From NCBI GenBank assembly GCA_977020255.1, contig CDROCS010000851.1:434001-498000 (forward strand): DNA of 64,000 bases, in the 5' to 3' direction. Positions 16,498 to 41,802 of this stretch are shown in pieces. The stretch is from Obrimoposthia wandeli. Taxonomy: Eukaryota. The translations under genes were made by a program, and so were the position numbers. A model generated the notes under the pieces. The model searched no databases and had not been told where the DNA came from. It worked only from the letters and a program-made list of their open reading frames with translations. Numbering within the stretch: position 1 is the first letter of the stretch; the number at the start of each line of letters is the position of its first letter.

Positions 16498-16751
16498 TAC
16501 TTAAAAATAAGTATTTATAATTTGATAAATATGTTTAAACGTTCTTGTATCTATCTATCTAACAAAGACAGTCACGTACTGCATCTATATAGCAAATACT
16601 TGCAACTTTATGTAATCAATAGTAACAAGTCATGTACTACATTTATTCTTTTACATGTATGTATGTGTGTGAGTGTCTAACAAAGATAGTCATCAATACC
16701 TACAAAGATAGTCACGTACTGCATCTATATTGCAAACTATCTGCAACTTTA
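16498..16751 (+). repeat. Element A left inverted repeat (with internal direct repeats)
   Basis: Reverse complement of 28280-28521; aacaaagacagtcacgtactgcatctatat occurs twice. Confidence 0.9.
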
Positions 16752-16833
16752 AATAAAGACAAGTATTTTTGTAACATATATTCCTTAAAATCACAAAGGA
16801 GAGTAAAAATATATACATAAACATATAAAAAGA

Positions 16834-19800
16834 TTATACAATATCGTCCGGGTATAAAAAGTGACCATAGGCAACTGATTGGTTTTTCTCCACCCATTTG
16901 CGTTTATCATCGTTACTACTTAAGGCAATTTTACTTAACCTTACAGTAAAAAGTTGATGATTTAGCGAGCTTATACGTTGTTGTACACACTCGCTAACGT
17001 CACTCTCATAGACGGCTAAGTAATTAGAGTGTCTAATACTTGTCTGTCGGAGACTAATACCTTTAGCTCTCATTTGAGTTTTACCTTCTGTAGTCTGTAA
17101 GCTATATGATTTTGGACGAAGAAAAATCCCTTGCCTATAGCTAAATAATCCCATGCTCTCATCATTAAATTTGCCTATCGCTTTATTAAGCGTCGTATAA
17201 AGCGGCTGGGTTTTTGGAAATTTTGAGTTATCCAACAGTCCATCAGCAATCATAGCAGGTAACAGTGATTCTTGAACATTTACATTATTGCACTTCAAGA
17301 AAAAACTACCAGTGTCACCCGCTATAATTCTAATGTCACAGTTAAATTGAGCTCGATATTTCTCCAACTGCTCATATTGTAGCTCATACATACGAATTTT
17401 GCTTAAATCTAATTCTGCCTGGCCCATATAACTAGTAGAACTGCAATAAGGTCCGTATCGATTTCGATTGTCCTACGAAAGTGGGCTTTACTGCAATAGG
17501 TAACCAGCTTCTGTGGAGTATTACAAATCCGGAGGTTAATTCTTTTCATCAGATTCTCAATGAGTTTTCCAAATAAAGAATTCACCTTCAGTTTGTAATA
17601 ATCATGCTCGAAATCTGTTGTAGCTGCAGCTCTTTTAAGAGAATTATCCTCAATATATTTTGAAAAAACAATAGTTTGTTCAAACTGTATTGCTCTATAT
17701 ACAAAATCTACCTTAGCACCAAGTCTAACGTACATTTGTAGCAATCTAGAATTCACAACATAATGTTTCTTAGGGTAATGCGTTAATAATAATTTTTCAG
17801 TCTTATACCCTGGTGGACGCTGTTTAATTGGAGCAAGGAGAAGATCGTCGAATTTATTATGTAGCTCATTGAGAATGGATAAATCTATTTCCAATAAGTG
17901 AGCGAAGCGACTACAGGATAAATCTGCTGATTTTAACCTGGAAATAATATTCCCAACTCTAACCGATCAGTCACCCAGGAAAAGTTACCACAAGGTAAAA
18001 ACTGGGACATGGCCCACCCGTACAAGTTATTTACATCAATGTACAAAAGTTCAGTATCATTGATGGCGTCCACTTTGTGTTCATTCACGAAGGTCATGCC
18101 CCCACGAATCCCGGAGCGGAAGAGACGGACATCTCCGGATCCTGGATTAGCTCGACTTGTACAGGAGGAACAGAAGAATCCAGGCAAAGCAGGGAATTGA
18201 AAGCACTCGCGAAAGTCAGTCCTGGAAATAAAACATTTATTAAAATCATTACTTTGTGAAAATTATTACTTTGTGAAAATCATTACTTAGTGAAAAGTTA
18301 CTTAATAAAAATTTACTTAGAAAAAATTAGTAAAATACAAACCAGGGATGGAGAAGAAATTGAGCGGCTACAATCCATCGTCAGCAATGGCCTTGATCCG
18401 GAATGCTGTAAACACATCTGCTAGAAGGTAGACGTCCATCTTCATATAGACCAGCATATAGTCCCAGAGCGATGAGCAGCCGCTCTGAGTCCAGACCATC
18501 TTCGCCATCTCATATTGTGCTGGCTTGATCTTTTCATCCCACTTTGGCGGTAAGCTGGTGATTACACGAAAAGCAGTCTCGATACTGCCATATCGTATGG
18601 GAAGATTCCCTTGGCGCTCACTAGATGTTGCGGGAAGACCGAATGTGTAAGAGGAGTCACACCCAGGTTTTCCACAAGTTTTTCAAGCCCGCTGTTCAAA
18701 AATTGCTAGGAATCTATAAAGTGAATATGGACTCCTCCAATATACACCATCATAGCCCGAAATTTATATGTTGATTAAGGTATAACAGATACATTCCAGT
18801 CAGGCAACTTGCACAGTGCGTGTTTCAATATGTGGTGCATATCATAACCCATCAGATTATGAAAAATGACGGGAAAAGATCGATTGAGTCTCCTTGATAA
18901 GTTACATTTCGTATGCGATGCTCCAAGGTACTCGCCCGTCATGTGATCGTGATCTCGAACTTTGTTTGTTAGTTTCTTCTTACACAGGTAACAGATTCTT
19001 GCGGCATTGAAACTCGATACTTGTTCCTGTGTAAGTTATCGCATCATCTCGATCGCATGATTTTTGTACCACGGGAGAACAACCTCTTTCGCCAAGTCCT
19101 CTAATTTCTGCAAAAAGGATACCAGACAAAATTCTTCGGTAAAGACCGAGTAATTATGTGTGTACCCTGACGTGGCTGTAACGGGAGACATGAGCATGCG
19201 GCCGAGATTGAAAGCTGAATCTGATGATGTATTCCATGCGGCGGCAGCACAGCCTCAAAGTCCACGTAAACAGCAAAAGACGGAGAAATCATTTTTGAAA
19301 AGTCCTTAAACTCAATATGCTTCTCTGTAGGCAGTGAATAAAGTGCGTATGATCTAAATTCATCCTGCAGAGCGGAACGTGTTTGGCGTAATTGATTGCT
19401 TTCTGGAACCCATAGAGACACTTATGGCACCAAGTACACCGAATGCAATTAGATACACCTTTGTTCCTATAATTAAGCAGCCTATTGAGTTTAGGAATAC
19501 CAAGATAATGAAAATTATCATTATTTTCTAAAAGGAGAAGATTGATTGGCTTAGCGTCCGGGTTTGTGGTTCTGTACATGACATCAACATAGGGATTTTT
19601 GAAGATATCCCTATCCGTTTGCACATTTGAAAACCTATTGAATGTAAATACTTTGATTGGGAGAGATGGATTTTTTTTCTCAAATCCCGGTATATTACAT
19701 AAACGCATCGGCATCTCATTCTCATCAAAAACTAATTGACTCAAAAGGGCATCATATTGATTAACCCTATGAGGATTAGAGCGAAATACTTCACGGTAAA

Positions 19801-20839
19801 GTACAGCTAAGATGCTGTAAAGGAAACAAAAGGTGTTAGAGTTCTGCACATTGATAACGCAATGTGAGAGTGCTAACTCAGATGGAGTAGGTATATAACT
19901 ATTCCCCTGGAGATAGTTCATTGTTGTTGTTTTAGTCACAACAAACGAAATCTCCAGGAAGCGGTTCACTATCCAAGTACTACTACTCTGGGAATAATTC
20001 TCAATCTTCTTTTTGATCCCATCTACTCCATCATCTATGGGGAGCCCTCTATTGGAAAAATTCCAAGCGCGTGTTTCTCCAATATTGGAAAATTCAACAC
20101 GCACCCCGAATTGTACCTTACAAGTCGCAAACTTGCTGACTGTATCCCTTAAGCTAGTCAAAAGTGATTCGGTAACTTGTAAATCAATGACATTGTCATT
20201 AGAAACATCTAATGAAAATGTCTCAATCGTGCCCCGAAGACTAGTTTTTCGCTTAACAGCATCAACCCTGGGCAACTTCGCAACAGAGCTACCTGAAGTG
20301 GGCATAACATTTCTCTTGCGGGTAGATGCTGGTAACGGCGCGGGATCATACCAACTGTTGATGGAGGAGGCACAACTTGAAGCATAGTAAAATGTACAGC
20401 AAATGGTGGAGCAGCAATTGGCGCAGCAATTGGAGAAGTAATTGGTGCAGCAACTGGGGCAGCAGCAAATGGAGTAGATAGTGGAGCAGCAATTGGGGCA
20501 GTAACTGGCGAAGAAGCAGCAACCCGATCTTGAGAAATGGAAGCAGTAGAAGCAGTCATATTACTGTGAGCTCTATCCTGGAAGATGGCCTTCTTGCCAC
20601 GTTGCTGGAAATATCGTAGATGGGTGCGATGACGCGCTACAAACTCCAACCAATCAATCTCCTCCGCGGATAGATATACTGGACAGTCGTAGAAGAGTTG
20701 TCCATTGAACTTTGGCTCAAAGTAGCTCTTCATTTTCAAATCACATTCCTTGTGACTCTCCTCTAAGCATAATCGTTTATTCATGTTGCAATTCTAGAAA
20801 TATATTAAAATATCAGAAAAATAACAAGAAACTTACCAT
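16834..20839 (-). pseudogene. pPolB: Protein-primed family B DNA polymerase with N-terminal Cys/His domain and EndoVII/HNH insert; two predicted introns; frameshifts and stops
   Basis: VYVDFE (ExoI), CYLC..VRDHDHMTG..GASHTKCNL, FHNLMGYD (ExoII), IRGG, YIDVNNLY, KLKVNSLFGK, AGDTGS (mutated YxDTDS), RAKG. Confidence 0.93.
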
Positions 20840-20884
20840 TTTCAATTTTGTTTATAATAGAGAGTTAATTGTTGATTGATGCTT

Positions 20885-20976
20885 GCTTTTATACTATTTT
20901 CGAGCTAGTATTCAGCCAATCAGATTCATTAATTATTTAAACCAATCAGATTAATTTATTATTTAAACAAATCAGA
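20885..20976 (-). promoter_or_regulatory. Candidate pPolB promoter: TATAAAA plus three tandem CCAAT-like boxes
   Basis: ccaatcaga at 20916 and 20942, caaatcaga at ~20968; TATAAAA ~50 nt upstream of ATG 20839. Confidence 0.45.
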
Positions 20977-20988
20977 ATTGAAAATAGT

Positions 20989-21501
20989 TTACTGATTAAT
21001 GTAAGTAGTTGATTTTTCATTAATATTTAAATAATCCAAAGTAGCTGCAAAGCATTTCTTGTATGCACAATGCTCCCCATGTTTAATATATGGACAATTG
21101 ATATTTGATGGATTTAATTGTTTTAATGTTTTCGAGTAATTTATCACTCTAAATTCAGGAAAATATTTATTGATTGTCTTTATTTTAGCTCCCTTATATT
21201 CATCCAAAACAAAGAAAATTGATTTGGATACATCACAACAATGTTTTATTTCCTCAGTTATTTATTTTATCTTGAAATAACTATTACCATCAACTAGTTT
21301 TAGTCGATGGTAATGCTTAATGAGATATCTATTTATTTTTCTTGATTTTCTATTCATCATGTCCCATATGGGTTGCATTTTAGAAACATAATGTTAAGGA
21401 TAGAAGATTGCATCCACATCCATTTTACATAGTTACTTTATTACAAATTCAGTATTATTATTATCAATAAAAGCTTCAAAATCAATAAAATAAACAGACA
21501 T
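20989..21501 (-). pseudogene. DEDD-exonuclease-like Polinton accessory protein (homologue of 39955-40407)
   Basis: IDFEAF..K*LC and CPYIKHGEHCAYKKCF; in-frame stops. Confidence 0.7.
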
Positions 21502-21532
21502 TTTTTATAGCAGTAATTTTATTTGATATTGT

Positions 21533-21916
21533 TTATATCTTTTGTTTATGCTTTAACCAAAGAAAACAGAGTTGTCCACATGACTGTGTTAAAACATTTT
21601 GATAACGTTTCTTACTAAAATGTACTTTCTTTCTAGAGTCAAGTACTGTAGCTACTAATTTAAAAGGGTAATATATCCCAAAGGGGACAAAAATAAAGTT
21701 TTCATTTTCTTTAACATGTATTGCAATCCAATGTTCATCACGCAAATTAGACGAATGTATATTGATTACATATCCACTTAAACGAGTCAAAGAGGGGATA
21801 TGATCAAGACTGTAGACTCCATTGAAACGCGAACCGAGTAGTTTTTTTCCGCTTTTTGTTATCTCGTCCGAACTAGATTATATATTAATTAATTAATTCA
21901 AACTGACTCACTTCAT
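21533..21916 (-). CDS. PRO: Adenain-like cysteine protease, spliced (exon1 21912-21916, intron 21873-21911, exon2 21533-21872)
   Basis: MNSDEITKSGKKLLGSRFNGVYSLD...EHWIAI...FVPFG...QSCGQLC; catalytic H and C present, D position reads V. Confidence 0.85.
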
Positions 21917-23111
21917 TTATATCTTCTTGTTTTTTATTGTTTTCATTCTGTTTATACTAGTACTGTTCATTGAAGTAATTTTGGTAATTTGAACCTCAGA
22001 ATCGAATACTCCATAGATTATAATATTAGTAGGATGTTCAAGTGCTTTTGTAAACTTGATTTCTACTTTAAAATTTCCCTGTTTAGGGATTTGAGCTCGA
22101 TTAATATCGAAATCAGGAGAGAGAACAAATGTGAACAGTGTATCTTTAAAATCAGTCATTGAAATTCCAACATTAGCATCCTTATCCAAATTAAAGATTG
22201 CACATAAGAAAACACATAATCATTATTTTCAAAGTCATTCGTATACGTTTCTTGATAATCAATATTTCGTGCAAGTTTAATTGAACTCCCATATGTCCCA
22301 ATTGAGAAACCTCATTTTTAGACTCACCTCCATAGGTAGAAGTATTTTGGAAAGCAATTAAAACAAAGTTTGGAAGTTGCATATCACCAAAATTCTGATT
22401 CTTGTAATAAGATAGTGCTCCTGTAGGGATAGCATGAGAAACAAGATTAGTTTTTCTGATAGGATAACATGCATTTTGCTTCTCCAACCATATTTGATGT
22501 GCAACGAGTACAGATGGTTCCACCTTTACTCTACGAACCAGCAGTTTTGCTTCCGTAATCTCAATTGCTGCTTTAATAGTATCATCGCAAACAACACTAA
22601 AACCTACTGGATTTCTCTTCATTCGAATATGTGCACTTACACCGGGTAAAAGATACTTTGGTTGATTAAAGAAATCCAAATGAAGACTCCCACAAAGTGA
22701 CAATACTTTAGATTTCGCAATCGAAGCTGTTCTTCTTTTTTCATCATCATCAAACCCAATTGCATCAATATTAATCAATTTCGTATCATTACCCTAATTC
22801 AGTAATGTTTCAATCATTGCTTTATGGGTGTAACTAGTATTATTTCCCTCAACTTTCACATTATTGAGACTGAGAATCACATGCTTGAAAAGAGTATGAA
22901 ACATGAAATTAGATGATTTGATAACCAAATCATCATCCAAATCACCTCCTCCTTTCTTTGTAACTTTCAATTGAACGAGAAATAAACTATCCGGAGAAGA
23001 TGTCATGTTAACCGTATTTGTTGGATTATTTTCTTCAAAACTAGCACTATCAATCACAACCCGAGGTATAGGTTTATCGAATATACACAATTCAGTTTTA
23101 GCACAACTCAT
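21917..23111 (-). pseudogene. MCP: Major capsid protein (double jelly roll), frameshifted
   Basis: Collinear with intact MCP at 38310 (ELCIFD, LDFFNQPKYL, LSPDFDI..GNFKVEIKF). Confidence 0.9.
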
Positions 23112-23422
23112 TTCTTAAAAATTGTTCCACCTAGTTTGTTTATACCAGATGCTTTAGATGTTTTCTTACGTTTAGAACCACTTCCATTTTGAGTTTTTTT
23201 CTAATATTCAGCTAGACTTGGAGTGGGAAGAAATTTCTCATCACCAGACAAGTATGTTGATCCAACATTAGCAATAAATTTCCCGAGTCGCTTGAGTAGT
23301 GAGAATGCAAAACAACCAAAAACTTTCATCCATCCTGATCCATACTGTTTTCCCACAAAATAAGGCAAATCACCTCCTTGCATGGGTTTACTATACGCAT
23401 CGATTATACTTGAATCAATCAT
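23108..23422 (-). pseudogene. Small Polinton core-like protein (GGDLPYFVGKQYGSGW), frameshifted
   Basis: Homologous to 37913-38317. Confidence 0.75.
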
Positions 23423-24437
23423 AATTTACGAAAATGAACCGTTAAACTTGTTTTAGCTCCGTAAGCAAATGTAATTAATCTTCTAGAATCATTACGTATA
23501 TTAACTTCAATATAGTTTATATAAGAAGAACTCATTGGAATATAAATTGGATTTTCAATTGGAATATGTATAACATCACCATACTTGTGCTTTTCCTGCT
23601 GAACCCAAATTTCTATTATTTATGGAAGTTTAGTTCCTCCTACGAATATTGGTTCAGTAATACTCGTGTAGATATAAATTTGATTATATGCATTAGTTAT
23701 TTTAGCCCCAACCTTTGCTTTGAAAACCTTATTTTTATTTTCAAATTCATTTTCATCAAAACCGATAATCGTAGCTAATGATTTATCCATAATAACATAA
23801 TATTTGATTTCAATTTGAAATGAATTAACTTATTAACTATTTTAAAGTTTTCAAATACATTCGGGAACACTGTTTTAAAATGTTTACACATGCTTTCACT
23901 ATCTGGAAAATGAAAAGCATTGGGAACTGAATATATTTTCCTCTCGCATTTAGTGAATCTGCTTTTTATCTTGAATGTAATTATCGGATACTTGATGTGT
24001 TTATCCATAATTCTCGAAAACACATGCTTTCCTTTTTCAGGGTTAGTTGGAAATCCATATTGTTCTGCAACAATTTCATAACTAAAAACTATTTCAAAAT
24101 TATCCCCTTGTCTTATAATTTGAATTCGATTCTTTTTATTTAAAAAGATTGTAAAATCATCGCCTGCCTTAATACGAGCCAAATCCATTTGACCCTTATC
24201 AAATAGTAAAGTCACATCAGTTACTTTATCAGCTTCTTGTTGAGTAATATATTCAATCTCAGTTTCACTTTGAATAGATAGAGGAGAGTAATTGAAAGAA
24301 AATTCCGTAAGAGCAGCTTCCCAAGCACCAGGTAAATTATTTGAGCTTTGATAATCAATACTAAAAGTATTAGCAGTATTATTCGGTTGAGTTAATGGCG
24401 AACCATTACTTGGTAATACAACATACATTGAGTTCAT
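23419..24437 (-). pseudogene. mCP: Minor capsid (penton-like) protein, frameshifted
   Basis: YVVLPSN..PNNTANTF..WEAALTEF N-terminus and YNQIYIYTSI..VGG, IEVNIRND C-terminus; homologous to 36858-37871. Confidence 0.85.
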
Positions 24438-25680
24438 TCTATTTGAGAAGTTAATATCCAACTAAGTTCAGTTTATCCATCCCACTTAACTCGATATTGT
24501 TTATGCTTTCTTCTCCCTTTTGTCTCTAAGATTTCTTGAATTCTATATATATTTGGTTTCTCAGGCAAGACTTGTAATTCCTCATGATAAAATTTACTTT
24601 TGATTATATTATTGCTATCATCCTCAATGAAATACATTACATGTTTATTATCAATTTTAGTTATACAAAATACTTCATCGCTCCAATTCTCTTTGAAATT
24701 CTTTATAAAAAGAGTAGTACTAATTTTAGAAATACGTACATAATCACCAACTTTATACTTGGGTTCCTTTACAACTTGACTTTAGTTACGGCGTTGCCAA
24801 ATTTCCATAGCATTTTCATCTGTAACATCAACAGGTCTCTTTCGGTTTAATGATGAGTGTTCACTATGATTGTATGCATGTATTATTTGAGGTAAAACAG
24901 TGACCCAATACTTATTTCCCTGCTTTGTGAAATACTTTTTCAATCGATCTCTCAATGTTCGATTAAAACGTTCAACTAAAGCAGCTTTATATTGGGAAAA
25001 TACTGAGTAATGATTAATATTATGTTTTTTCAATAATGCACTAACATGTTTATTATAAAACTGCTTTCCGTTTGGAAATTTCTTGGTTTTATTTCTTTAA
25101 TCAAAAGCTTCATTGCCTCTAAAATATCGTTACCAGACATAGACTTTAATGGAATAGCTCGTGAGAATCTGCTAAAGACATCAACACAAGTTAAAAGATA
25201 TCGATGACCACCGTTAATACTCGCATACAGAATCATTTCCATCAAATCTGCTTGCCATAAATCATTTGGACCGCTCGTTTTGATGATCTTGTTGGGAACC
25301 GACGTCTCATTGGTTTGTTTAAGCCAGGGTTTCTCAACCTTTTTTCACCACGGCCCCCTTTAGTTTGCAGCAAATTGCTGTGGCCCCCCTCTACTATGGA
25401 CAAAAAGATTACATCGTATACGTATTGTTTTCAATTATACTATTCTGTCATGGAAACATTCAAAAAGATAATCAATGAGAAAACTATATTTAAAAAATGT
25501 TAGTGTGACCCTTGTGCGTGTGCAGTGAAAACAGGGGTGTTAATTTTTTATTTTTGTTTGGCTCGTGTGGCCCCCTGGCAAATTGTGTGGCCCCCCAGGG
25601 GGCCCCAGGGCCCCCGTTGAGAAACCCTGGTTTAAGCTGTAAGCTAATTGATTTCTCAACCACGCCTGAGTTTCCAGAGG
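24434..25680 (-). pseudogene. INT: Retroviral-like DDE integrase with chromodomain, interrupted by a hAT MITE
   Basis: WQADLMEM, CVDVFSRF, FQTE, LVERFNRTL, YRVKWDG*. Confidence 0.9.
25325..25629 (-). mobile_element. Buster-type hAT MITE (305 bp), deletion derivative of the 6972-8111 family
   Basis: Same TIRs; 8-bp TSD GTTTAAGC (25317-25324 / 25630-25637); internal sequence shared with the 6972 copy in reverse orientation. Confidence 0.95.
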
Positions 25681-25899
25681 TTTCTTATGCCGATTCATGT
25701 TAGCCTTGACAGTTATTTTACCAGAAACTATTTTCTGTATCATATTAAGTAAATCATCAATTACAAAAGTAGGGAATGATTTAAGAATAGTTGGGCAGCG
25801 AATAGCAGGTGCACGCACGAGAGAATTGAAATAGGCACTAATCCTAGATTTCTTATTAACAATTATTTTCTTATTTGATTTTTGAGCAACCATTTTCAT
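25680..25899 (-). pseudogene. Small pX-like core protein, C-terminus deleted and fused to integrase N-terminus
   Basis: LKSFPTFVIDDLL homologous to 35358 and 30426 ORFs; GGF tail missing. Confidence 0.65.
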
Positions 25900-25959
25900 T
25901 GTACTTAAAACTGATTTAATCCATTTTTTAACTTCAGGTTTAACAGTTTACTTTTTAAA

Positions 25960-26128
25960 ATTTATCTCCGAGAAACTGGTTTCTTTGTTTGTTTATAGAC
26001 GCTAATTTTTGATGGATTGATTATATCAGTTTTAACTTTAAAGTCATCAGGACAATCTTGAGTAAAATCAATAATAATGTATCCATGAGGAATAGTAGTT
26101 GCATCTTGAAATAAATCAATTAGGAAAC
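25960..26128 (-). pseudogene. Packaging ATPase C-terminal fragment
   Basis: FLIDLFQDATTIPHGYIIIDFTQDCPDD matches the C-terminus of 34626-35255. Confidence 0.8.
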
Positions 26129-27024: not shown

Positions 27025-27033
27025 AACAAAATT

Positions 27034-27060
27034 GAATGAGGAAATTGTCTAGCTTATATA
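27034..27060 (-). promoter_or_regulatory. TATA box and TCATTC initiator upstream of the IAP gene
   Basis: TATATAAG ~20 nt upstream of TCATTC, then ATG at 27024. Confidence 0.4.
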
Positions 27061-27443
27061 GTAAGTGAAATCTATTTTAGTAACATTCTTAGTTTTTACA
27101 AGAAATGTCATGTGATGTCTTTGTCTTAAGAATAAAGCAGTATAAACAATATTTTGATAATGATTTTATTGAAAATGAATAATCAAAATAATCAAAGTAG
27201 AGTAGAGTATATAGGTTCTGGTAGTAATTTATATTCTAATATGAATTAGAATAGAAATAATCAGAGAGAAAATATTAATCCATCAAGTCAAACAATAACA
27301 AGTCCTACGCGCGTAACCGAAGAACGTAAGCCCTTTAAGGATATGACTAATACTAAACGATTTTCATAAACAAGAATGTCGACCAATTAGAATTGAGCTT
27401 TAGAGGATAAACAATTGAATATTTCAACTTATAATTGTAAATA

Positions 27444-27830: not shown

Positions 27831-27968
27831 ATACATTTTTGTGTCTTTATTTGTATTATTTTATTTTATATATAAACAATAGTGATACTTTAATAATATT
27901 TATTATGAAAATGACTAAAAAAACCTACTAAATCATTAAAGTCAAAAAACACTAAGGTTAAAAAGACT

Positions 27969-28232: not shown

Positions 28233-28279
28233 CTTGGTAGAAAACTTTTACTAAAATCTCCAAAGAGTTTGTAATTACA

Positions 28280-30420: not shown

Positions 30421-30425
30421 TTTGT

Positions 30426-31643: not shown

Positions 31644-32362
31644 AGTAGGTAAAAGGATGAAGTCTAAGCCACTTGACCCCCCCTAAAGGGTGTCACACCA
31701 TAACGGTGTCTTGCCACACCATAAGGGTATATGTTGCCTCACCTCAGGTGAGGCAACATATACCCTTATGGTGTGACACCCTTTAGGGGGAGGCGGGAGG
31801 GGGAGGGGAGGGGGAAGGATAGGGGGGTCAAGTGGCTTAGACTCCATCCTTCTTTGATATACCACTATGGTCGTCCATAGGTTAAAGGGTCAAGTGGCTT
31901 AGACTCCATCCTTCTTTGATATACCACTATGGTCGTCCATAGGTTAAAGGGTCAAGTGGCTTAGTCTCCACCCTTCTTTTTGAGATATACCACTATGAAA
32001 GGGTCAAGTGGCTTAGTCTCCACCCTTCTTTTTGTGATATACCACTATGAAAGGGTCAAGTGGCTTAGTCTCCACCCTTCTTTTTGTGATCTAGTCTCCA
32101 CCCTTCTTTTTGTGATCTAGTCTCCACCCTTCTTTTTGGTTAACCACTAATTCAAAGGGTCAAGTGGCTTAGTCTCCAACCTTCTTTTTGTGATCTAGTC
32201 TCCACCCTTCTTTTTGGCTAACCACTAATTCAAAGGGTCAAGTGGCTTAGTCTCCACTCTTCTTTTTGTGATCTAGTATCCACCCTTCTTTTTGGCTAAC
32301 CACTAATTCAAAGAGTCAGGTGGCTTAGTCTCCACCCTTCTTTTTGTGATTTAGTCCATAAT
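31644..32362 (+). repeat. Element B left TIR: palindromic terminal ~210 bp plus tandem tagtctccacccttctttt units
   Basis: Matches reverse complement of 41329-41802; perfect hairpin 31715-31775. Confidence 0.95.
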
Positions 32363-33584
32363 AATGCTTTTCTAATGACAAATCGGTTTTGAAACCATGT
32401 AAACACTTTTCACACCATTTTCTGCTAATTCTAGTCGTTCCAGTTCGAATATTTAATAGCCGGTTAAGACAACTTATTCCTATATAATGAAACCGTTCCT
32501 TGGATTCTAGTAACAATAAATTAACTATAGTTCCTTCCTTCATTTTTGATTTGTATGCAACATCGATATAAGGATTCTTGATAACATCAGTTTTTGATTC
32601 TTTTTCACTTACCTCGTTGAATATGAATACATTTATTATTATACCAGGATTTTGCCGTTCAAATTTTGATATATTTGATATTTTCATAGGCATGTCTTCG
32701 GAATTATATACAAAATCATTTAAAAATCTTTCATAGTTGCTTGGTCTATTTCTATGTGAGTCTATTTCATTATATTTAAGTATTGACAATATTGCATAAA
32801 TAAAGCAAAGATTATCAGAGTTTAGAATATTTATGACTGCTTTAGATTTTGTAAGAGAATTTGGTGATTTAATATATGAATGACCTGACAATGCACAAAT
32901 TTGACTATATTTAGTAACAATAAATGCATATTCAAGTATATTCATCAATTTCCAACCACTACCCTTTTCTGAATATTCTTCAACTTTATTTTCCATTGTA
33001 TCTTCCATTTCTGAAATTATAGCATGTGAAAAAATCATTGCTCGATGTGAAGCATACCATTCTTTAGTTTCTCCATCATTCTTTTCAAACCTCATTCTAA
33101 TGATGTATTGTATCTTTGCTTTTCCCATTAATTGCACTATTCTTTCTAGTTCGTTTAATAATGAAACTGGAACCTTAAGACTTACAAGATTGAGATGATC
33201 TACTTTCATGGATATCATTGAATAACTATTTTCTAACGATGTTTTAGTATGTATATTGTCATTTATTTTACGTTTTCGTGACGGAGTAGGAGCTGAAATT
33301 ACTATGTTTGATGGTACATTAATTATATCAGTTCTTTTGCTTAAAGCCGGTACTTTAAATAATTTTTTCTAACTAACATTTTCATATTCTTTTAAATGAC
33401 TAACATGTCGACTATAAAATAAGTTGTAATCAACATTTTCAGTGCTTAAACATTGTGGACATATGAAATAATTTATCCTTTTGTATGAATAACCATAATA
33501 TTTTTTCATTATATCATGACATTCTTGAGGATTAAAATGTGTATCCGAATAACAAAAATTTGAATAAGTTTTACATATACTCAT
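32325..33584 (-). pseudogene. pPolB: pPolB N-terminal region only (Cys/His domain and terminal-protein region), truncated at the TIR
   Basis: Collinear with A 19289-20793 (YIKSP..AVINILNSDNLCFIYAILS, NPYIDV, FHYIGI..LNRLL, WCEKCLHGF); in-frame TAG at 33369-33371. Confidence 0.85.
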
Positions 33585-33689
33585 CTGATGATATGATTGA
33601 TTTGATTGGACTTGAGATATTGGTTGATTTGTAGACTGAATAAAAAAATATATATATATAAATACAATAATTTAATTATTTTACTTACA

Positions 33690-34154
33690 ATGTTAACAAA
33701 TATTAATTATAAAGGAATTTGCTTAGATGATGTATCCAAATTAAAATTTCGAACACGACCAGAACAATACGTTTATAAAGCCAAAGATTATACAATACTT
33801 ATTTTTAGAAATAAGAAATGCAGGATTATGGGATGTAAGGTACCTATTAAAAATATTTCTTACCCTTTAAGAATAAATATACTTGGTATTCAATCAATTA
33901 CGATATGTGAAAATTTAGAACAAAGTTTCAATCTATTTAAATTATCGAATGTATTACGTAATGCATGTTCATTTGACCCTGAGGTTTTCCCAGGCTTAAG
34001 ATTAAATATTTTCAATCCATTGTGTGTAAATATTTTCACATCTGGAAAGGTCGTAATTTTAGGTCTTAGAAATTTAGATTTTCAAAATCAAGTTAACGAT
34101 ATTATGACATACATTAAAAATAAATTATATAAATACGAAACAATTTCTAATTAA
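33690..34154 (+). CDS. TATA-binding-protein-like protein (154 aa)
   Basis: Two TBP-like repeats: TILIFRNKKCRIMG and SFDPEVFPGLRL..VNIFTSGKVVILG (cf. YEPELFPGL..LIFVSGKVVLTG). Confidence 0.85.
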   Translation: MLTNINYKGICLDDVSKLKFRTRPEQYVYKAKDYTILIFRNKKCRIMGCKVPIKNISYPLRINILGIQSITICENLEQSFNLFKLSNVLRNACSFDPEVFPGLRLNIFNPLCVNIFTSGKVVILGLRNLDFQNQVNDIMTYIKNKLYKYETISN

Positions 34155-34169
34155 ATCATTCAATTTTAA

Positions 34170-34544
34170 ATGTCTTATAAAGCCGTTCAAAAGTATTACG
34201 AGTATGATATGTTCTTCTTGGCATCTGTATGGATTCAACCAATGACATTATCGAAAACTTTGTACAATTACCGAGTCTCTGATTTTGACGACAAAGACAT
34301 TCAAAAATTCAATGAAATCGTCAAATATTTGAAAATTGATGTCGAACTTGAGAATGAGGGTATATTTATGCGCGGAGATAAGTGCAAATTTTATGATTGT
34401 GGTGGAACAAAGATTTCGGATATTCAAGAAGATGGAAGAAGTTGGATGCTCGAAATAAAAATTCTCGGATATAAAATAAATAAACAGAATGAAACAACTC
34501 TCATCTGGAGGATTCATACAGCGACCGAATATTTTGATGTTTAA
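34170..34544 (+). CDS. Uncharacterised Polinton protein (124 aa)
   Basis: Intact ORF with a homologue in element A. Confidence 0.7.
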   Translation: MSYKAVQKYYEYDMFFLASVWIQPMTLSKTLYNYRVSDFDDKDIQKFNEIVKYLKIDVELENEGIFMRGDKCKFYDCGGTKISDIQEDGRSWMLEIKILGYKINKQNETTLIWRIHTATEYFDV

Positions 34545-34625
34545 TAAATATTTAATAAAATGTTGTTATTGTTATAAACATGTACTTATTCTGATATATT
34601 TATTTTATATTAATATTTATATATA

Positions 34626-35255
34626 ATGTTATTAACAAACAATTCAACTTTTCAAGTAGTAGGACCAAGTGGTAGTGGAAAAACTTTATTTGTTTGTAAA
34701 TTATTAAATTCAAAAATGTTTAAAAATAAATTTAATAAAATATATTGGCATCAAGGTGGTGATGGAGAAGCTGGTTTAACAAACCAAGAATTTAATAAAA
34801 TAAAAAACATTAAGATTATTAACGGTTTTGATGAAAATTGGACGACAAGACTCGTAAAAGGTGATGTAATTGTTATTGATGACTTATATCAAGAGGCTAA
34901 CAAAGAATCTGATTTTAATGATTTATTTACAAAAATTGCAAGACATAGAGAAGTTACTGTAATTTTTATAACCCAAAATTTATTTCATCAAGGAGGAAAT
35001 CATCGTACTCGTAATCTTAATGTACATTATTTGATTTTATTCAAAAATCCTAGAGATCAGACAGTGATAGATTTTATTGCTCGTCAAGCATTTCCTCATA
35101 ACAAGAGTTATTTAATTGATGCGTTTCATGATGCTACATCTTTACCTCATGGTTATTTATTTTTAAATTTTACTCAATCATGTCCTGATGATTTAAGAAT
35201 TGTTACTGATATATTTAACCGTAATGGTATTACAGTCTATAAACAAAATAAATAA
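34626..35255 (+). CDS. A32/FtsK-like packaging ATPase
   Basis: GPSGSGKT, VIVIDD, IFITQNLF, LFKNPRD. Confidence 0.95.
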   Translation: MLLTNNSTFQVVGPSGSGKTLFVCKLLNSKMFKNKFNKIYWHQGGDGEAGLTNQEFNKIKNIKIINGFDENWTTRLVKGDVIVIDDLYQEANKESDFNDLFTKIARHREVTVIFITQNLFHQGGNHRTRNLNVHYLILFKNPRDQTVIDFIARQAFPHNKSYLIDAFHDATSLPHGYLFLNFTQSCPDDLRIVTDIFNRNGITVYKQNK

Positions 35256-35274
35256 TAATAATGTTTTAAAATAA

Positions 35275-35400
35275 AATGAATTTTAAAAAGAGTATTCTTA
35301 AACATAGCAAAAGGACAGATAAAGATGAAGTTAAAAAATTAATAAACACTGTATTATATGATCGTAATAATATTGAATTTTCAAAAAGTTTATTATTTTA
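35275..35400 (+). CDS. Small basic ORF (41 aa)
   Basis: KDEVKKLINTVL ~ KPEVKKWIKSVL in A; a basic ORF occupies the same position in C. Confidence 0.4.
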
Positions 35401-35687
35401 AAACCTTAATTGACGTACCAAAAACGAATAAAATGAAAATGTTGAAATCATTTCCAATTTATGTAGTTGATGATTTAATAAAAATTTTAAATAAAATAAT
35501 TTATGGTAAAATTAAACCTGATGATAATATTTTAAAATATAAAAATTCATTAATAAATTTAGCAAATTCACGTGGTAAAATTAATAAAAGAAACATTATT
35601 TATAGTCAAAATGGCGGATTCATATTGGCCCTACTGCCCGCTATAGCATCAGTAATAGCTAGTGTTATATCTTCAAGATGGGGATAG
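35358..35687 (+). CDS. pX-like small core protein (QNGG/FILALLPAIAS)
   Basis: GG followed by a hydrophobic helix, like adenovirus pX; homologues in A and C. Confidence 0.7.
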   Translation: MIVIILNFQKVYYFKTLIDVPKTNKMKMLKSFPIYVVDDLIKILNKIIYGKIKPDDNILKYKNSLINLANSRGKINKRNIIYSQNGGFILALLPAIASVIASVISSRWG

Positions 35688-35832
35688 TTGTCTTAATAAC
35701 GAAAATAATTACATTCATTCGTTTTATACAAACATATAAACAGATTAAAAATATATTTAACTTTTATAATAATGGGGATAAACAATACAAAGTTGTCTAA
35801 CTTATTTATAAATTTTAATTCTTCATGCTGCA

Positions 35833-36858
35833 ATGGAAAAGATTTGGAACAATCCAGAAGATCCAGACGGTTATACAGGGTTAGAAAAATTGACAAAAAG
35901 AGTCAAACAATCAAAAACAAACACACAAAAATGGTTAAGAAATGAATTATCATATAGTTTGAATAAACCTTTAAGACGTAAATTCCCTACTAGATCATAT
36001 AAAACTAATGGTATTAATTCGTTATGGCAGATGGATTTAATGGAAATGATTCCTTATTCTTCAGTAAATAATGGATTCAAGTATATTTTAACTTGTATTG
36101 ATGTATTTAGTCGTTTTGCAAGGGCAGTTGGTGTTAAATCAAAATCAGGTATTGATTTATTACATGCAATAGAATCTTTAATTGTTGATGATGTACCAGT
36201 AAATATCCAAACCGATGAAGGTAAAGAATTTTTTAATTCACATGTTAAGAAATTATTTAAAACTGAAAATATCAAACATTATTCAGTATATTCTCAATAT
36301 AAAGCTGCAGTAGTTGAAAGATTTAATAGAACGTTAAGAGAACGGTTAAAGAAATATTTTATTAAACAAGGTAATAAGAAATGGGTGAATGTATTACCAA
36401 AAATTATTTATGCTTATAATAATTCTAAACATAGAGGTTTAGATGGTTTAAAACCTGTAGATGTAAATAATAAAAATGAATTTGATATTTTGTTGAAACA
36501 AAATCTAAAAGAAAAGAAAGTTAAATCTAAATATAAAATTGATGATTATGTTCGAATATCAAAAATAAGTACAAGTCCATTTATTAAAAATTTTAATCAA
36601 AATTGGAGTGATGAGGTTTTTCAAATTCATGATATTAATTATAAACAAAATCCAATAATGTATATTTTAAAAGATATTGATAACGTCATCATCAAAGGAA
36701 AATTTTATAAACAAGAGTTACAATTAATTGATAAACCTAAACTATATCGAATACAAGAAATTTTAGAAACTAAAGGTCGTGGTAAGAATAAACAATATTA
36801 CGTAAAGTGGCACGGATACTCTGAACCTTCTTGGATATTTGCTTCTCAAATTGAATAA
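35833..36858 (+). CDS. INT: DDE integrase with C-terminal chromodomain
   Basis: WQMD, QTDEG, VERFNRT; YYVKWHGY..SW; intact 341 aa. Confidence 0.96.
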   Translation: MEKIWNNPEDPDGYTGLEKLTKRVKQSKTNTQKWLRNELSYSLNKPLRRKFPTRSYKTNGINSLWQMDLMEMIPYSSVNNGFKYILTCIDVFSRFARAVGVKSKSGIDLLHAIESLIVDDVPVNIQTDEGKEFFNSHVKKLFKTENIKHYSVYSQYKAAVVERFNRTLRERLKKYFIKQGNKKWVNVLPKIIYAYNNSKHRGLDGLKPVDVNNKNEFDILLKQNLKEKKVKSKYKIDDYVRISKISTSPFIKNFNQNWSDEVFQIHDINYKQNPIMYILKDIDNVIIKGKFYKQELQLIDKPKLYRIQEILETKGRGKNKQYYVKWHGYSEPSWIFASQIE

Positions 36859-37871
36859 TGTCAAAATATATTATTTTACCTAGTAATAGTTGTCCAAGTA
36901 CTCAACCTAACAATACAGCCAATCAATTTACTGTAGATTGAGAAAACTCTCTAAATTTAGATGGTGAATGGGAGGTTGCCTTGACTGAATTTGTATTTAA
37001 TTATACTCCTTTAACAATACAAACTAATTCAAAAATACTTTATAAAACGGAAAAGATAGAAATGAAAACTTTCGATGTATCTTTTGCAATTTTAAATGGA
37101 TTAATTTTTAATAATTTAAATACTGTTTTCAATTTCAAAATTACAAAGGGTCAAAAATTAGAAATAAGTACAATTAACAGTATTCATCGAATGTTGTGTA
37201 AATTCGAAACTTTAGAAGAATCAAAAATTATAGGTTTTAATGAAATACAAAAAATTTCTAGTCATGTTATAACAAGTGATGAAATTGTTGACATAAATAA
37301 AAATATTCATGCTAAAATGAGAATTACAATTTATTATTTAGCTGAATATGAATACGAAATAAAATTTAATCAAAATTATTTGATACAAGATAGTTCTTCA
37401 TTATGTAATATTATAGCCAGTAAATGTAATGAAATTTTTAAAAGCTGTAATATAGATTCAGACGGATTATTTGATATTTTATTAAAGAAAAATGTAAAAT
37501 CAGTTTTATTTGACGAAAAACTTGCATCTTTATTAGGTTTTAATAATGTTTTCTTTGAGAAACGAATTAAAGGTTTTCAAAAACCAACACTTTCTAGCTC
37601 ATATAATCAAATGTATATTTATACTAGTTTAACAGATTCTGTCTTAGTAGGATCTGATTATGTTCCACTGTTAAAGTCTATTTGGTTAAAATCATTAAAA
37701 TATCGATATGGAGATGTAGTAAATGTTAAAATTGATAATCCAATGTACTTGAAAATGAGAGATTCAAGTATTAATAGAATCGAGGTAAATATACGTGATG
37801 ATTCTGGTAATTTAATTCCATTTTCATATGGAGCAAAAATTAGTTTAACTCTTCATTTACGTAAAGTATAA
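36858..37871 (+). pseudogene. mCP: Minor capsid (penton-like) protein with one in-frame TGA (36939-36941)
   Basis: ATG overlaps INT stop (TAATG); LPSNS..PNNTANQF..WEVALTEF; YNQMYIYTSL, IEVNIRDD. Confidence 0.85.
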
Positions 37872-37912
37872 ACAATATAAATATATTTAAAATATAAATA
37901 TATATATATAAA

Positions 37913-38317
37913 ATGAATACATCAATTATAAAATTTTATAGCAAAAGTCAACAGGGCGGTGAACTTCCCTATTTCATTGGTAAACAATATGGATCTGGTT
38001 GGTATCAAACTATTTCTAGATTAGCTATTCCATTATTAAAAAAAGTTGGTTTATCAGCAGCTACAAGTGCTGCCAATGTAATTGGTGAAACGGTAGGAAC
38101 TGCGTTAACAAATCCAAAAAACATAATTTCATCTCTCAAAGAAAATACTATCAAAGAAGTCAAAACTTTGATTCCAAAATTAAAAAATAATGCTGTTGAG
38201 AGTTTAAATAAAGTCGCAAATTGTGTTGAACAAAATGGAAAGGGTCTTAAACGTAAAAGAAATAATTTAAATAGTATAAACAAACGTCTTAAAGGTACTA
38301 TTTTCCAAAATGACTAG
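37913..38317 (+). CDS. Small Polinton core-like protein (GGELPYFIGKQYGSGW)
   Basis: Homologue in A; basic C-terminus. Confidence 0.8.
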   Translation: MNTSIIKFYSKSQQGGELPYFIGKQYGSGWYQTISRLAIPLLKKVGLSAATSAANVIGETVGTALTNPKNIISSLKENTIKEVKTLIPKLKNNAVESLNKVANCVEQNGKGLKRKRNNLNSINKRLKGTIFQND

Positions 38318-39530
38318 TATAAAATCTGAATTGTGTATTTTCGATAGACCACTACCTCAAGTAGTGATTGAAAATTCAAGTTTTGAAGAAATATTTCCAA
38401 TCAATTCAATTACTGGAAAAAATTTAAATGACATAGAATTTAATATTCATGCATCTGAAGAAGATTATCTGGATTTGAATGATACTTTGTTAAATATTAA
38501 ATTAAAAGTTGTAAATGAAGATGGTACTGATTTAATGAAAGATAGTGATGTAACTCCGGAGAATTACATGTTTCAAACTTTGTTTAGAGATGTTATTCTA
38601 ACACTTAATAATGTAAAGGTTGAAGGAGGAAATGGAACGTATACTCATAAGGCTATATTCGATACTCTTTTGAATTTTAGTAGTGATACCAAGTATACTA
38701 ACCTTGAATGTTCCGGGTATGATGATGATGCAGAAAATCGTAAACAATGGATTAGTGAATCTAAAATATTTTCATTGTGTAATTCAATTAGATTAGATTT
38801 CTTTGATCAACCAAAATATTTGATTCCAGGGATTAATGTTCATTTGAGATTTATGAGAAATCAGCATAATTTTTCGCTCTATTCAGAAACTTCAAAACCA
38901 ATTATTCAAATTCTAGATGCTAGATTGTATGTTAGAAGAGTAAAAGTTGATTCTTCAGTAATGATTGGACATCAGTTAGGTTTGCAAAGTCAGAATGCAG
39001 TTTACCCAATTAGAAAAACTCAGTTAGTAACATATTCAATTCCTCAGGGTTCTTTGGAACTTAATAAAGATCAAATATTCGGAGACTATCGTTTACCCAA
39101 GTTCATTTTGATTGCTTTCAAAGATACACCTCAGGGTGGTAAGGAATACAAAGTTAAATCTTCTACGTTCAATACATTTAATGTTTCAACAATATCATTA
39201 GCTAGAAATACAGATTATCGAGAAACTTATAATCTAGATAATAACAATTTTTCATTAGCATATATGCAGTCAATTATTCGAAATATGAATATTTTAGATA
39301 AAAACGTGAATAATGGTATCAGATTTTCTGATTTTAAATCAGGAAGTTCGATTTTCACTTTTCTATTAGCACCAGATTTTGATATAAACACTACTCAAGT
39401 GCCTAAAACTGGTAATTTAAGACTTGAAATTAGATTTAATTCTCCTTTGACCGTTCCAACAAGTGTTTTGATTTACGGAATATTTGATTCCGAAATTCAG
39501 ATTACGAAAAATAAAACTGTGATTGTATGA
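38310..39530 (+). CDS. MCP: Major capsid protein (406 aa, intact)
   Basis: SELCIFD N-terminus, LDLNDTLL, LDFFDQPKYLIPG; size and position typical of Polinton MCP. Confidence 0.93.
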   Translation: MTSIKSELCIFDRPLPQVVIENSSFEEIFPINSITGKNLNDIEFNIHASEEDYLDLNDTLLNIKLKVVNEDGTDLMKDSDVTPENYMFQTLFRDVILTLNNVKVEGGNGTYTHKAIFDTLLNFSSDTKYTNLECSGYDDDAENRKQWISESKIFSLCNSIRLDFFDQPKYLIPGINVHLRFMRNQHNFSLYSETSKPIIQILDARLYVRRVKVDSSVMIGHQLGLQSQNAVYPIRKTQLVTYSIPQGSLELNKDQIFGDYRLPKFILIAFKDTPQGGKEYKVKSSTFNTFNVSTISLARNTDYRETYNLDNNNFSLAYMQSIIRNMNILDKNVNNGIRFSDFKSGSSIFTFLLAPDFDINTTQVPKTGNLRLEIRFNSPLTVPTSVLIYGIFDSEIQITKNKTVIV

Positions 39531-39903
39531 AGTAAGCTTATTGTATATTATATTCTTTATTTAAATTAGTACTTTAGAAATTCATAAATCCGGAAAAATA
39601 TTATTGAATAACAAATTTAATGGAGTATATTCATTGGATAAAATTCCATCATTAAAACCCGGAGGTTACATTATCAATACTAATACTTCAAATCTACCAG
39701 GCGAACATTGGATAGCAATATTCGTTGACAGATTCGAGATTCGAGTGTTTGACCCTTTTGGATTCTATTATCCTGCAAAGTTGGTGTCTACACTTGAAAA
39801 AGAAAACATTCCAGTCTACTATAATCGAGTTAAATGTCAGAATCCATTAACTAAAAACTGCGGACCTCTGAGTCTTTTATGGTTGAAACTTCAACACAAA
39901 TAA
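39527..39903 (+). CDS. PRO: Adenain-like cysteine protease, spliced (exon1 39527-39531, intron 39532-39569, exon2 39570-39903)
   Basis: MNTLEIHKSGKILLNNKFNGVYSLD..GEHWIAI..FDPFG..KCQ..NCG. Confidence 0.9.
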
Positions 39904-39954
39904 TTTTAAGTATAAACAAATATATCATTATAGTATTTTATTTTATTTTTTCAA

Positions 39955-40407
39955 ATGGCTTTTCTTGATTTAGAATGTTTTATTGATAATAATGGAGAAT
40001 ATATTCCAAAGGAATTATGTATAATGTATGTGAATGATATGACTTGTCCATTTCATTACGTGTTTAAAAATCAAATACCATGGAGTAGTTTATCATTTAC
40101 AGTTAAAAGAAAAAATCTATATTTGATAAATCATCATCATCAGTTATCCTGGTTTGAAGGTGAAAGCTCTGATATTCATATTGATGATGTTGAAACAATA
40201 TTCTATGTTATGGATTCTATTGATGGAAAGAAAATTAATTTAGTGAAACGAATGTTTCCAAATTTGAGAATTGTGAATTATAATAAAAGTTTCAAAAATT
40301 TAAAGAAAATGCCAAAAAATATTCGATGTCCGTTTAGAAAACACGGAAAACATTGTGCTTATTTGAAATGTTTTTCTCTATGTATTGATTATGTAAATTG
40401 TATATAA
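39955..40407 (+). CDS. DEDD-exonuclease-like accessory protein (150 aa)
   Basis: FLDLECF..KELC; C-terminal CPF..HG.HCAY.KC; homologue in A. Confidence 0.7.
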   Translation: MAFLDLECFIDNNGEYIPKELCIMYVNDMTCPFHYVFKNQIPWSSLSFTVKRKNLYLINHHHQLSWFEGESSDIHIDDVETIFYVMDSIDGKKINLVKRMFPNLRIVNYNKSFKNLKKMPKNIRCPFRKHGKHCAYLKCFSLCIDYVNCI

Positions 40408-41468
40408 ATATATTTATTAAGGATATTTTATTTTAATATATAATTTATGTTATTTAAATAAATTTTACCATAATTCTTTAGATGTGTAAGCCTGGAAAAA
40501 CTTTAGTCTAAATTTTCGCATAGAATAGTATGTGTGTGATTACGTAATACATTCTTAACTAATAAGAGTGAACTTAGTATAAATTTCACATAAAATAGTG
40601 TGTGTATGATTACGTCATACATTCTTAATTGATAAGAGTGAACTTTATCCTAAATTTTCATTATGGACTAGATCACAAAAAAGAAGAGTGGAGACTAAGC
40701 CACTTGATCCTTTGAATTAGTGGTTAGCCAAAAATAAGGGTGGAGACTAGATCACAAAAAGAAGGGTGGAGACTAGATCACAAAAAGAAGGGTGGAGTAA
40801 ATCATCATCATCAGTTATCCTGGTTTGAAGGTGAAAGCTCTGATATTCATATTGATGATGTTGAAACAATATTCTATGTTATGGATTCTATTGATGGAAA
40901 GAAAATTAATTTAGTGAAACGAATGTTTCCAAATTTGAGAATTGTGAATTATAATAAAAGTTTCAAAAATTTAAAGAAAATGCCAAAAAATATTCGATGT
41001 CCGTTTAGAAAACACGGAAAACATTGTGCTTATTTGAAATGTTTTTCTCTATGTATTGATTATGTAAATTGTATATAAATATATTTATTAAGGATATTTT
41101 ATTTTAATATATAATTTATGTTATTTAAATAAATTTTACCATAATTCTTTAGATGTGTAAGCCTGGAAAAACTTTAGTCTAAATTTTCGCATAGAATAGT
41201 ATGTGTGTGATTACGTAATACATTCTTAACTAATAAGAGTGAACTTAGTATAAATTTCACATAAAATAGTGTGTGTATGATTACGTCATACATTCTTAAT
41301 TGATAAGAGTGAACTTTATCCTAAATTTTCATTATGGACTAGATCACAAAAAAGAAGAGTGGAGACTAAGCCACTTGATCCTTTGAATTAGTGGTTAGCC
41401 AAAAATAAGGGTGGAGACTAGATCACAAAAAGAAGGGTGGAGACTAGATCACAAAAAGAAGGGTGGAG
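40127..41468 (+). repeat. Tandem duplication, 2 x 671 bp
   Basis: 40127-40797 equals 40798-41468; ORF stops at 40407 and 41078 differ by 671. Confidence 0.95.
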
Positions 41469-41802
41469 ACTAAGCCACTTGACCCTTTGAATTAGTGGTT
41501 AACCAAAAAGAAGGGTGGAGACTAGATCACAAAAAGAAGGGTGGAGACTAAGCCACTTGACCCTTTCATAGGGGTATATCAAAGAAGGGTGGAGTCCAGA
41601 TCACTTGACCCCTCCCCGCTACCCCTCCCCGCCTCCTCCTCCCTAAAGGGTGTCATACCATAAGGGTATATGTTGCCTCACCGGAGGTGAGGCAACATAT
41701 ACCCTTATGGTGTGGTAAGACACCTTTATGGTGTGACATCCTTATGGTGTGACACCCTTTAGGGGGGGGTCAAGTGATCTAGACTCCATCCTTCTACCTA
41801 CT
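41329..41802 (-). repeat. Element B right TIR with hairpin (~41657-41712)
   Basis: Reverse complement of the left TIR with fewer repeat units. Confidence 0.95.

What the first reader, a model, noticed from the sequence alone, without database searches (positions are those of the whole stretch)
16498..41802. An intron-containing Polinton lineage whose introns match host intron size
Seen: five GT/AG-type introns at three positions in Polinton genes (protease in A, B, C; two in pPolB of A). Each restores a conserved reading frame or N-terminus. Four are 38-45 nt, the same size as the host's shortest introns here (39 nt in PTEN, 45 nt in MAP4K). Established: Polintons are usually described as compact with largely intronless ORFs. 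Inference: this lineage uses the host spliceosome to gate replication and maturation enzymes, and ORF-based annotation would miss or truncate these genes. Novelty cannot be confirmed without a literature and database check.
Basis: partly seen in the sequence, partly recalled or inferred. Interest (0 to 1): 0.85.

Follow-up and report, generated by a model that had tools for sequence, protein, structure and literature searches.

The report
Tiny intron marks a Polinton clade
In eight related lineages of Polintons, virus-like jumping elements usually described as intron-free, a tiny AT-rich segment with standard splice-site ends sits right after the protease start codon, so the host's splicing machinery is likely needed to make that enzyme, although no spliced RNA could be checked.

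Summary
The introns are well supported at DNA level; splicing is inferred, as no RNA could be examined. Four of the five segments are GT..AG (38, 39, 43, 121 nt); B's begins AT, a decayed donor. The protease intron sits after ATG-xA in four families of this genome (complete in 42/42, 36/36, 18/20, 4/6 copies) and four metagenomic families, with mostly unrelated interiors. These elements form one side of a 100/100 capsid-tree branch against 19 intronless relatives. Unspliced RNA stops at codon 3. Polymerase introns are family-specific: A's internal one (118-534 nt, 16/16 GT..AG) is absent from B, C, D, and both flanking exons show purifying selection (pN/pS 0.08-0.15). A's first polymerase intron is not needed for the frame. 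Nothing shows a regulated gate; constitutive splicing fits best. Sizes match host short introns in a small sample. Papers read call Polinton core genes intronless. This scan noted polymerase introns in Polintons on other DNA before (unchecked notes). New variant of a known kind.

The parts
39527..39531 (+). Protease exon 1 of copy C (start codon plus two bases), overlapping the major capsid stop codon
39532..39569 (+). Protease intron of copy C, 38 nt, phase 2, GTAAG..TAG
   Evidence: 42 of 42 family copies keep ATG, GT and AG, 37-39 nt
39570..39903 (+). Protease exon 2 of copy C, open, no Met
   Evidence: Pfam Peptidase_C5 E 0.002, below cut-off; profile A1 hits adenain 1avp E 5e-5
38310..39530 (+). 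Major capsid protein gene of copy C
   Evidence: atlas neighbours carry PF21738 DJR-like in 15-30% of members
31644..41802 (+). Copy C: Polinton with terminal inverted repeats, ATPase, integrase, minor and major capsid, protease; polymerase truncated
33636..33688 (-).
   Evidence: GT..AG in 17 of 17 copies with both flanks, 47-57 nt, 20 examined
21873..21911 (-). Protease intron of copy A, 39 nt, phase 2
   Evidence: 36 of 36 family copies complete
21533..21872 (-). Protease exon 2 of copy A, no Met
20794..20836 (-). pPolB intron 1 of copy A, 43 nt, directly after an ATG (phase 0)
   Evidence: GT..AG in 20 of 20 family stretches, 25-58 nt; same position relative to the start codon in family D
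18222..18342 (-). pPolB intron 2 of copy A, 121 nt, phase 1, in the Gly codon of the FSIPG motif
   Evidence: GT..AG in 16 of 16 stretches with both flanks, 118-534 nt, 20 examined; selection on both exons
16498..28540 (-). Copy A: decayed Polinton (stops and frameshifts in most genes); ends approximate
29213..29257 (-). Protease intron of fragment B, 45 nt, donor decayed; exon 2 broken at codon 47 and truncated
61750..61788 (-). Host PTEN intron, 39 nt (size comparison)
   Evidence: PTEN_C2 hit in the same gene region
12723..12767 (+). Host MAP4K-like intron, 45 nt (size comparison; gene name recalled from motifs)

Best explanation
These segments are likely ordinary host-type (U2) introns that the host spliceosome would remove every time; the protease one sits at the same site in eight diverged Polinton families and was likely inherited from their common ancestor, while the polymerase ones differ by family and were likely gained later. 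Shown: position, GT..AG ends, a stop at codon 3 when the segment is left in, no Met before the catalytic His in 6 of 8 families, a start codon overlapping or within 2 nt of the capsid stop codon in 8 of 8. Inferred: transcription by host Pol II in the nucleus; splicing gives Met-X-exon 2; the protease is likely translated by re-initiation after the capsid gene or from a promoter inside it; the junction lies a few bases behind the capsid stop, so it would not trigger nonsense-mediated decay (50-nt rule, recalled). The splice sites are kept because losing them would kill the gene, not necessarily because they regulate it.
For: Protease intron complete in 42/42 (C), 36/36 (A), 18/20 (B) and 4/6 (D; two further rows were false anchor matches and are dropped) copies, and in 7 of 30 metagenome loci (four families), whereas the other 23 have a contiguous Met start. 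Lengths 37-45 nt in all three frames, AT 0.79-0.90; interiors no more alike than shuffles in 25 of 28 pairs. Capsid tree: 15 intron-bearing rows against 19 without, one change, 100/100 (6 of 40 loci dropped as too short). Intronless relatives start M-x-T/S exactly two residues before exon 2. pPolB intron 2 varies 118-534 nt with fixed ends, recurs with another interior in a subfamily 12-16% diverged, and variants shared between copies have pN/pS 0.08 downstream (11 non-synonymous, 38 synonymous) and 0.15 upstream, against 0.70 and 0.59 for single-copy variants (15 copies). Families B and D carry further short GT..AG segments near the pPolB 5' end.
Against: No spliced read was seen; splicing rests on DNA alone. 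Branch points were not tested. In the weak protease tree (111 columns, 84/75) four database proteins with a contiguous Met start (P0001, P0008, P0013, P0020) fall among the intron-bearing rows; their DNA could not be seen, so the intron may have been lost in some members or gained more than once. Family D and L183 have a Met at exon-2 position 24 and 27. Copies were picked by best match, so tallies favour young copies. D's second and third pPolB segments lack an end in 3 of 20 and 5 of 21 copies.
Confidence: 0.7

Rival explanations
1. Regulated gate: the introns are retained in most cells or stages and spliced only when the element replicates, so that protease and polymerase are made on cue (like the tissue-specific P-element intron, recalled).
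For: Only the protease and polymerase genes gave convincing candidates in a motif scan of nine stretches from seven families; retention gives a stop at codon 3; A's internal pPolB donor GTTTG is off-consensus and kept in both subfamilies.
Against: Protease donors are GTAAG or GTGAG in 8 of 8 families, near-consensus; the codon-3 stop follows automatically from phase 2 plus GTRAG; the internal pPolB intron is missing in B, C, D and L181; relatives do without the protease intron.
Confidence: 0.17
2. Expression aid: 5'-proximal introns are kept because spliced transcripts are exported better or escape silencing of intronless RNA, whatever protein they encode.
For: All four families of this genome have a short GT..AG segment at the pPolB 5' end, in two of them in the UTR or where no frame needs it. 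Polintons are piRNA targets in planarians (PMC8532177, passages).
Against: L181 shows no comparable strong candidate at its pPolB start in the 130 nt held; integrase, ATPase and capsid genes show none; not exclusive of the best explanation.
Confidence: 0.08
3. Not introns: AT-rich spacers or insertions; the protease starts at a non-AUG codon or is reached by read-through or frameshift, and the pPolB segment is an insertion into a dead copy.
For: No RNA evidence; the genome is AT-rich and GT/AG pairs are common; the motif scan also gave off-strand hits.
Against: Fixed GTRAG and AG at one site across families 50-60% identical in protein; lengths in all three frames exclude a fixed frameshift; purifying selection on both sides of the pPolB segment.
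Confidence: 0.05

Closest known systems
Vertebrate Mavericks (Barreat and Katzourakis 2021, PMC8097293; passages)
   Same: TIRs, 6-bp target duplications, pPolB, integrase, ATPase, protease, two capsid genes, PZ- and PW-like genes
   Different: [quoted passage not shown]
Nematode Mavericks (Widen et al., 10.1101/2022.07.12.499685; passages)
   Same: Core gene set; introns occur inside the element
   Different: There the introns are in captured host cargo genes and the core genes are called intronless; here they are in core genes
Introners in dinoflagellate Maverick/Polinton-like elements (PMC11957031; passages)
   Same: Spliceosomal-type introns inside Polinton-like elements
   Different: Those are recent insertions of intron-generating transposons; here one position is old and shared while the interiors are unrelated
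Adenovirus late and E2 transcription units (PMC7851563; passages)
   Same: Related nuclear dsDNA viruses whose protease and polymerase mRNAs are spliced by the host
   Different: Adenovirus uses long leader-to-ORF splicing; the protease ORF itself is not split after its start codon (recalled), and there is no integrase
Group I introns in cryptophyte PLVs (PMC12220804; passages)
   Same: Intron close to the capsid gene of a Polinton-like virus
   Different: Self-splicing, 309-376 nt, not GT-AG

Membership tests
Polinton/Maverick | Terminal inverted repeats | tested here: met
   C ends 31644 and 41802 are inverted copies; A arms 16552-16735 and 28285-28468, 96%
Polinton/Maverick | 6-bp target-site duplication | tested here: met
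   Exact in 9 of 9 family-C copies with both ends found, 19 examined; only 4 of 6 bases match at the window's own copy C
Polinton/Maverick | Retroviral-like integrase with chromodomain | tested here: met
   rve E 1e-10; Chromo E 0.002, below cut-off
Polinton/Maverick | A32-like packaging ATPase | tested here: met
   Pox_A32 E 8e-6, above cut-off
Polinton/Maverick | Adenain-like cysteine protease | tested here: met
   Profile A1 hits 1avp E 5e-5 over positions 5-109; Pfam Peptidase_C5 below cut-off
Polinton/Maverick | [quoted passage not shown] | tested here: inconclusive
   No Pfam hit; atlas neighbours at 0.98 carry PF21738 in 15-30% of members; no fold predicted
Polinton/Maverick | Protein-primed family B polymerase | tested here: inconclusive
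   ORF of about 1200 codons with polymerase-like motifs (recalled) and an Endonuclease_7 hit, a domain also listed for insect Maverick POLB (PMC5803895); Pfam DNA_pol_B_2 not hit
Polinton/Maverick | Intronless core ORFs (description in PMC8097293, not a strict criterion) | tested here: not met
U2-type spliceosomal intron | GT..AG ends, GTRAG donor, T-rich 3' part | tested here: met
   8 of 8 families for the protease intron; decayed in window copy B
U2-type spliceosomal intron | Branch point | not tested
   No host model built
U2-type spliceosomal intron | Removed from RNA | not testable with these tools
Introner | Similar intron sequences at many unrelated sites | tested here: inconclusive
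   Interiors unrelated between families; no genome-wide search for copies in host genes

The most novel reading that the evidence does not exclude
A widespread, so far unannotated Polinton clade (about 65 capsid clusters above a score gap) has made its maturation protease depend on splicing of a micro-intron placed just behind the capsid stop codon, and uses retention of that intron as an on/off switch for particle maturation; the 37-45 nt size would tie the clade to hosts whose spliceosomes handle very short introns.
Probability: 0.17. Interest if true: 0.8.

Novelty: new variant of a known kind. Interest (0 to 1): 0.58.

Why it matters
Surveys of Polintons assume intronless genes: one defines intact elements by intronless ORFs (PMC8097293), another uses a prokaryotic gene caller because endogenous viruses 'do not contain introns' (PMC10120064, passage). 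A clade with a fixed protease intron and family-specific polymerase introns would be scored as dead or truncated. The introns also imply nuclear transcription by the host, give a position marker for the clade's history, show intron gain inside a selfish element, and offer a simple RT-PCR read-out of element activity in a genome where Polinton coding sequence covered 11.5% of 390 kb sampled.

Tried and rejected
RNA: no RNA holder listed for a family-A stretch. The four listed runs, laid on window 9900-22400, behave as DNA: one contig crosses two host introns without a gap, and none of the 15 joints shown (339 not shown) lies at an intron. Neither result bears on expression. Word-index search with the protease exon found nothing; the full HMMER search did. 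IMG/VR gave 47 loci with weak matches only (E 2e-6 or worse, 30-34% identity); not analysed further. The L181 protease has its best scored match in this genome at 62%, so that family was not found here (only 150 candidates scored). Host phylum was not determined. Host intron sizes from a chaperonin search gave only a few candidates (40, 42, 43, 90, 125 nt, picked by composition and ends) because at least 20 top hits were bacterial-type groEL genes. The family-B second pPolB tally is off by one base because the anchor took the G; the sequences show GT..AG. Kapitonov and Jurka 2006 and Krupovic and Koonin 2015 were not held; Repbase entries and bioRxiv supplements could not be seen and may already annotate spliced Polinton genes. 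Word finds for intron/splic in PMC10748475, PMC8502044, PMC11296320, PMC9004415, PMC11071296, PMC11161782, PMC5803895 and 10.64898/2026.10.13.758929 (passages only) gave no spliceosomal intron in a Polinton core gene. Searches for such a report: (listings; planarian; adenovirus) were for background. No structure or complex prediction was run.
Full report
Setting. The window is G000:C851:434001-498000 in a 1.35 Gb AT-rich assembly, probably of an invertebrate animal; I did not determine the phylum. Between a MAP4K-like gene (name recalled from motifs) and PTEN lie three Polinton copies: A (about 16498-28540, minus strand, decayed), B (a fragment, about 29100-31643) and C (31644-41802, with terminal inverted repeats and a truncated polymerase). 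They belong to three families. The window's C is about 1% from most of its family and A about 7%. Each protease search filled its 150 scored places from about 26,000 first-look candidates. Polinton proteins covered 11.5% of 39 stretches of 10 kb taken at round positions on contigs already known to hold a Polinton, so the figure is biased upward. That sample showed a fourth family, D.

Observation. Four are GT..AG; B's begins AT. The two host introns of 39 and 45 nt are there, next to 76 and 103 nt ones.

Protease intron. Among fetched copies that hold the start of exon 2, start codon, GT and AG were all present in 42 of 42 (C, 37-39 nt), 36 of 36 (A, 39 nt), 18 of 20 (B, 42-45 nt) and 4 of 6 (D, 41-42 nt; two false anchor rows dropped); the window's own copies are included. 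No copy lacked the segment. It always falls after ATG plus two bases (phase 2). With the segment left in, the third codon is a stop in 42, 36, 19 and 4 of those copies. Exon 2 has no Met before the catalytic His in 6 of 8 families. The start codon overlaps or lies within 2 nt of the capsid stop codon in all eight, and several intronless relatives show the same coupling, so the coupling is likely older than the intron.

Outside this genome. A full HMMER search gave 1,735 relatives. Many begin M-x-T/S two residues before our exon 2. P0003-P0006 instead have leaders rich in F, L, I, Y ending in Ser at the junction, as reading through an AT-rich intron would give; P0002, P0007 and P0009 start at a late Met. 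A metagenome scan gave 30 loci: 7 (four families: L180/181, L182, L183/187, L184/185) carry ATG-AA, GTRAG, 39-43 nt and AG at the same site; 23 have a contiguous Met start. On a capsid tree of 34 rows (6 of 40 loci too short) the 15 intron-bearing rows are one side of a 100/100 branch (midpoint root, so gain versus loss is not settled by the tree). Interiors of the eight introns are no more alike than shuffles in 25 of 28 pairs (mean z 0.34), while all eight keep GTRAG and AG. Against a clean story: in a weak protease tree four proteins with contiguous Met starts fall among the intron-bearing rows (84/75). They may be losses, spliced transcripts or misplacements.

Polymerase introns. In family A the internal segment was found in 16 of 20 stretches (4 lacked a flank), all GT..AG, 118-534 nt, in all three frames. 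A subfamily 12-16% diverged has it at the same codon with another interior. Among 15 copies, shared variants have pN/pS 0.08 downstream and 0.15 upstream, single-copy variants 0.70 and 0.59: the polymerase stayed under selection in lineages that all carry the segment, which argues against an insertion into a dead copy. The motif is uninterrupted in B, C and D and the match runs through it in L181. A's first segment follows an ATG in 20 of 20 stretches with GT..AG ends, but an in-frame ATG follows four codons later in all but one copy printed, so no frame needs it. Family D has one at the same place (47 nt, 23 of 25 GT..AG) where the next Met is about 22 codons on, plus two more (17 of 20, 16 of 21). 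Family B has a 5'-UTR segment ending AG-ATG (11 of 11) and a second one; family C has a candidate 5'-UTR segment (17 of 17). So a short intron near the pPolB start recurs in all four families here, but the sets differ.

Mechanism. Shown: positions, ends, conservation, codon-3 stop, selection. Inferred: host Pol II transcription (TATA- and CCAAT-like boxes upstream of pPolB, seen; motifs recalled), removal by the U2 spliceosome, and a protease beginning Met-X-exon 2. I commit to constitutive splicing (0.7). A regulated gate is possible (0.17) but nothing here shows it: protease donors are near-consensus, the early stop is a by-product of phase and donor sequence, and relatives lack the intron. 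Size agrees with the host's short class in a small sample (39, 45 nt in the window; 40, 42, 43 nt candidates in chaperonin genes), but families from other samples have the same sizes.

RNA. Splicing could not be tested with the data on offer; details are under Tried and rejected.

Known and new. The elements meet most Polinton criteria tested, including exact 6-bp target duplications in 9 of 9 family-C copies with both ends found. Passages read call core genes intronless (PMC8097293; Widen preprint) or assume no introns (PMC10120064). Known exceptions are introners in dinoflagellate elements, cargo-gene introns and group I introns. Seven searches showed no report of a conserved spliceosomal intron in a Polinton protease; the founding 2006 paper, Repbase and most subscription journals were not available. 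Unchecked notes of this scan describe polymerase and small-gene introns in Polintons of other genomes, none the protease one; they suggest that intron-bearing Polintons are not rare, which I did not test. Spliced genes are normal in nuclear DNA viruses such as adenovirus, so the principle is not new; a fixed micro-intron marking a Polinton clade appears to be.

Verdict. Real feature, new variant of a known kind, interest 0.58.

Noticed in passing
L164:1350-2210 (family B pPolB 5' part): About 285 extra codons in front of the polymerase, ending in a ubiquitin-like stretch with LRGG right before the usual N-terminus; could be cut by a deubiquitinase, the vOTU domain or the adenain-like protease. 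Pfam gave no ubiquitin hit; the likeness is recalled.
   Followed up: partly
L084-L100, pPolB intron 2 of family A: In one subfamily the intron holds variable numbers of repeats like the element's own subterminal repeats, growing to 534 nt with unchanged ends.
   Followed up: no
window 33691-34154 (+): Family C carries a TBP-like gene (Pfam TBP E 8e-12) head-to-head with pPolB.
   Followed up: no
window 26530-27048 (-): ORF with a BIR (inhibitor of apoptosis) domain inside copy A (E 1e-12).
   Followed up: no
window 35772-35945 (+) and about 30367-30412 (-): Small ORFs starting Met-Gly with a Cys-Cys pair just before or overlapping the integrase start in C and B; possibly myristoylated peptides.
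   Followed up: no
window 40127-41446: 671-nt tandem duplication inside the right part of copy C; C's flanks do not form a clean target duplication.
   Followed up: partly
L274-L297: At least 20 diverse, intronless bacterial-type groEL genes (50-97% identical to each other) in G000: the assembly likely holds bacterial contigs.
   Followed up: partly
G000, 39 sampled stretches L121-L159: Polinton proteins cover 11.5% of 390 kb (biased sample): an unusually high load from at least four families.
   Followed up: partly
L180-L181: A metagenomic intron-bearing element has two minor capsid genes in tandem.
   Followed up: no
window 6965-8126 and 25310-25636: A small DNA-transposon-like repeat (211 nt arms, 96%) lies in a host intron and inside copy A.
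   Followed up: no
G000:C88:474838-482473: Five family-C protease matches in tandem about 1.8 kb apart.
   Followed up: no
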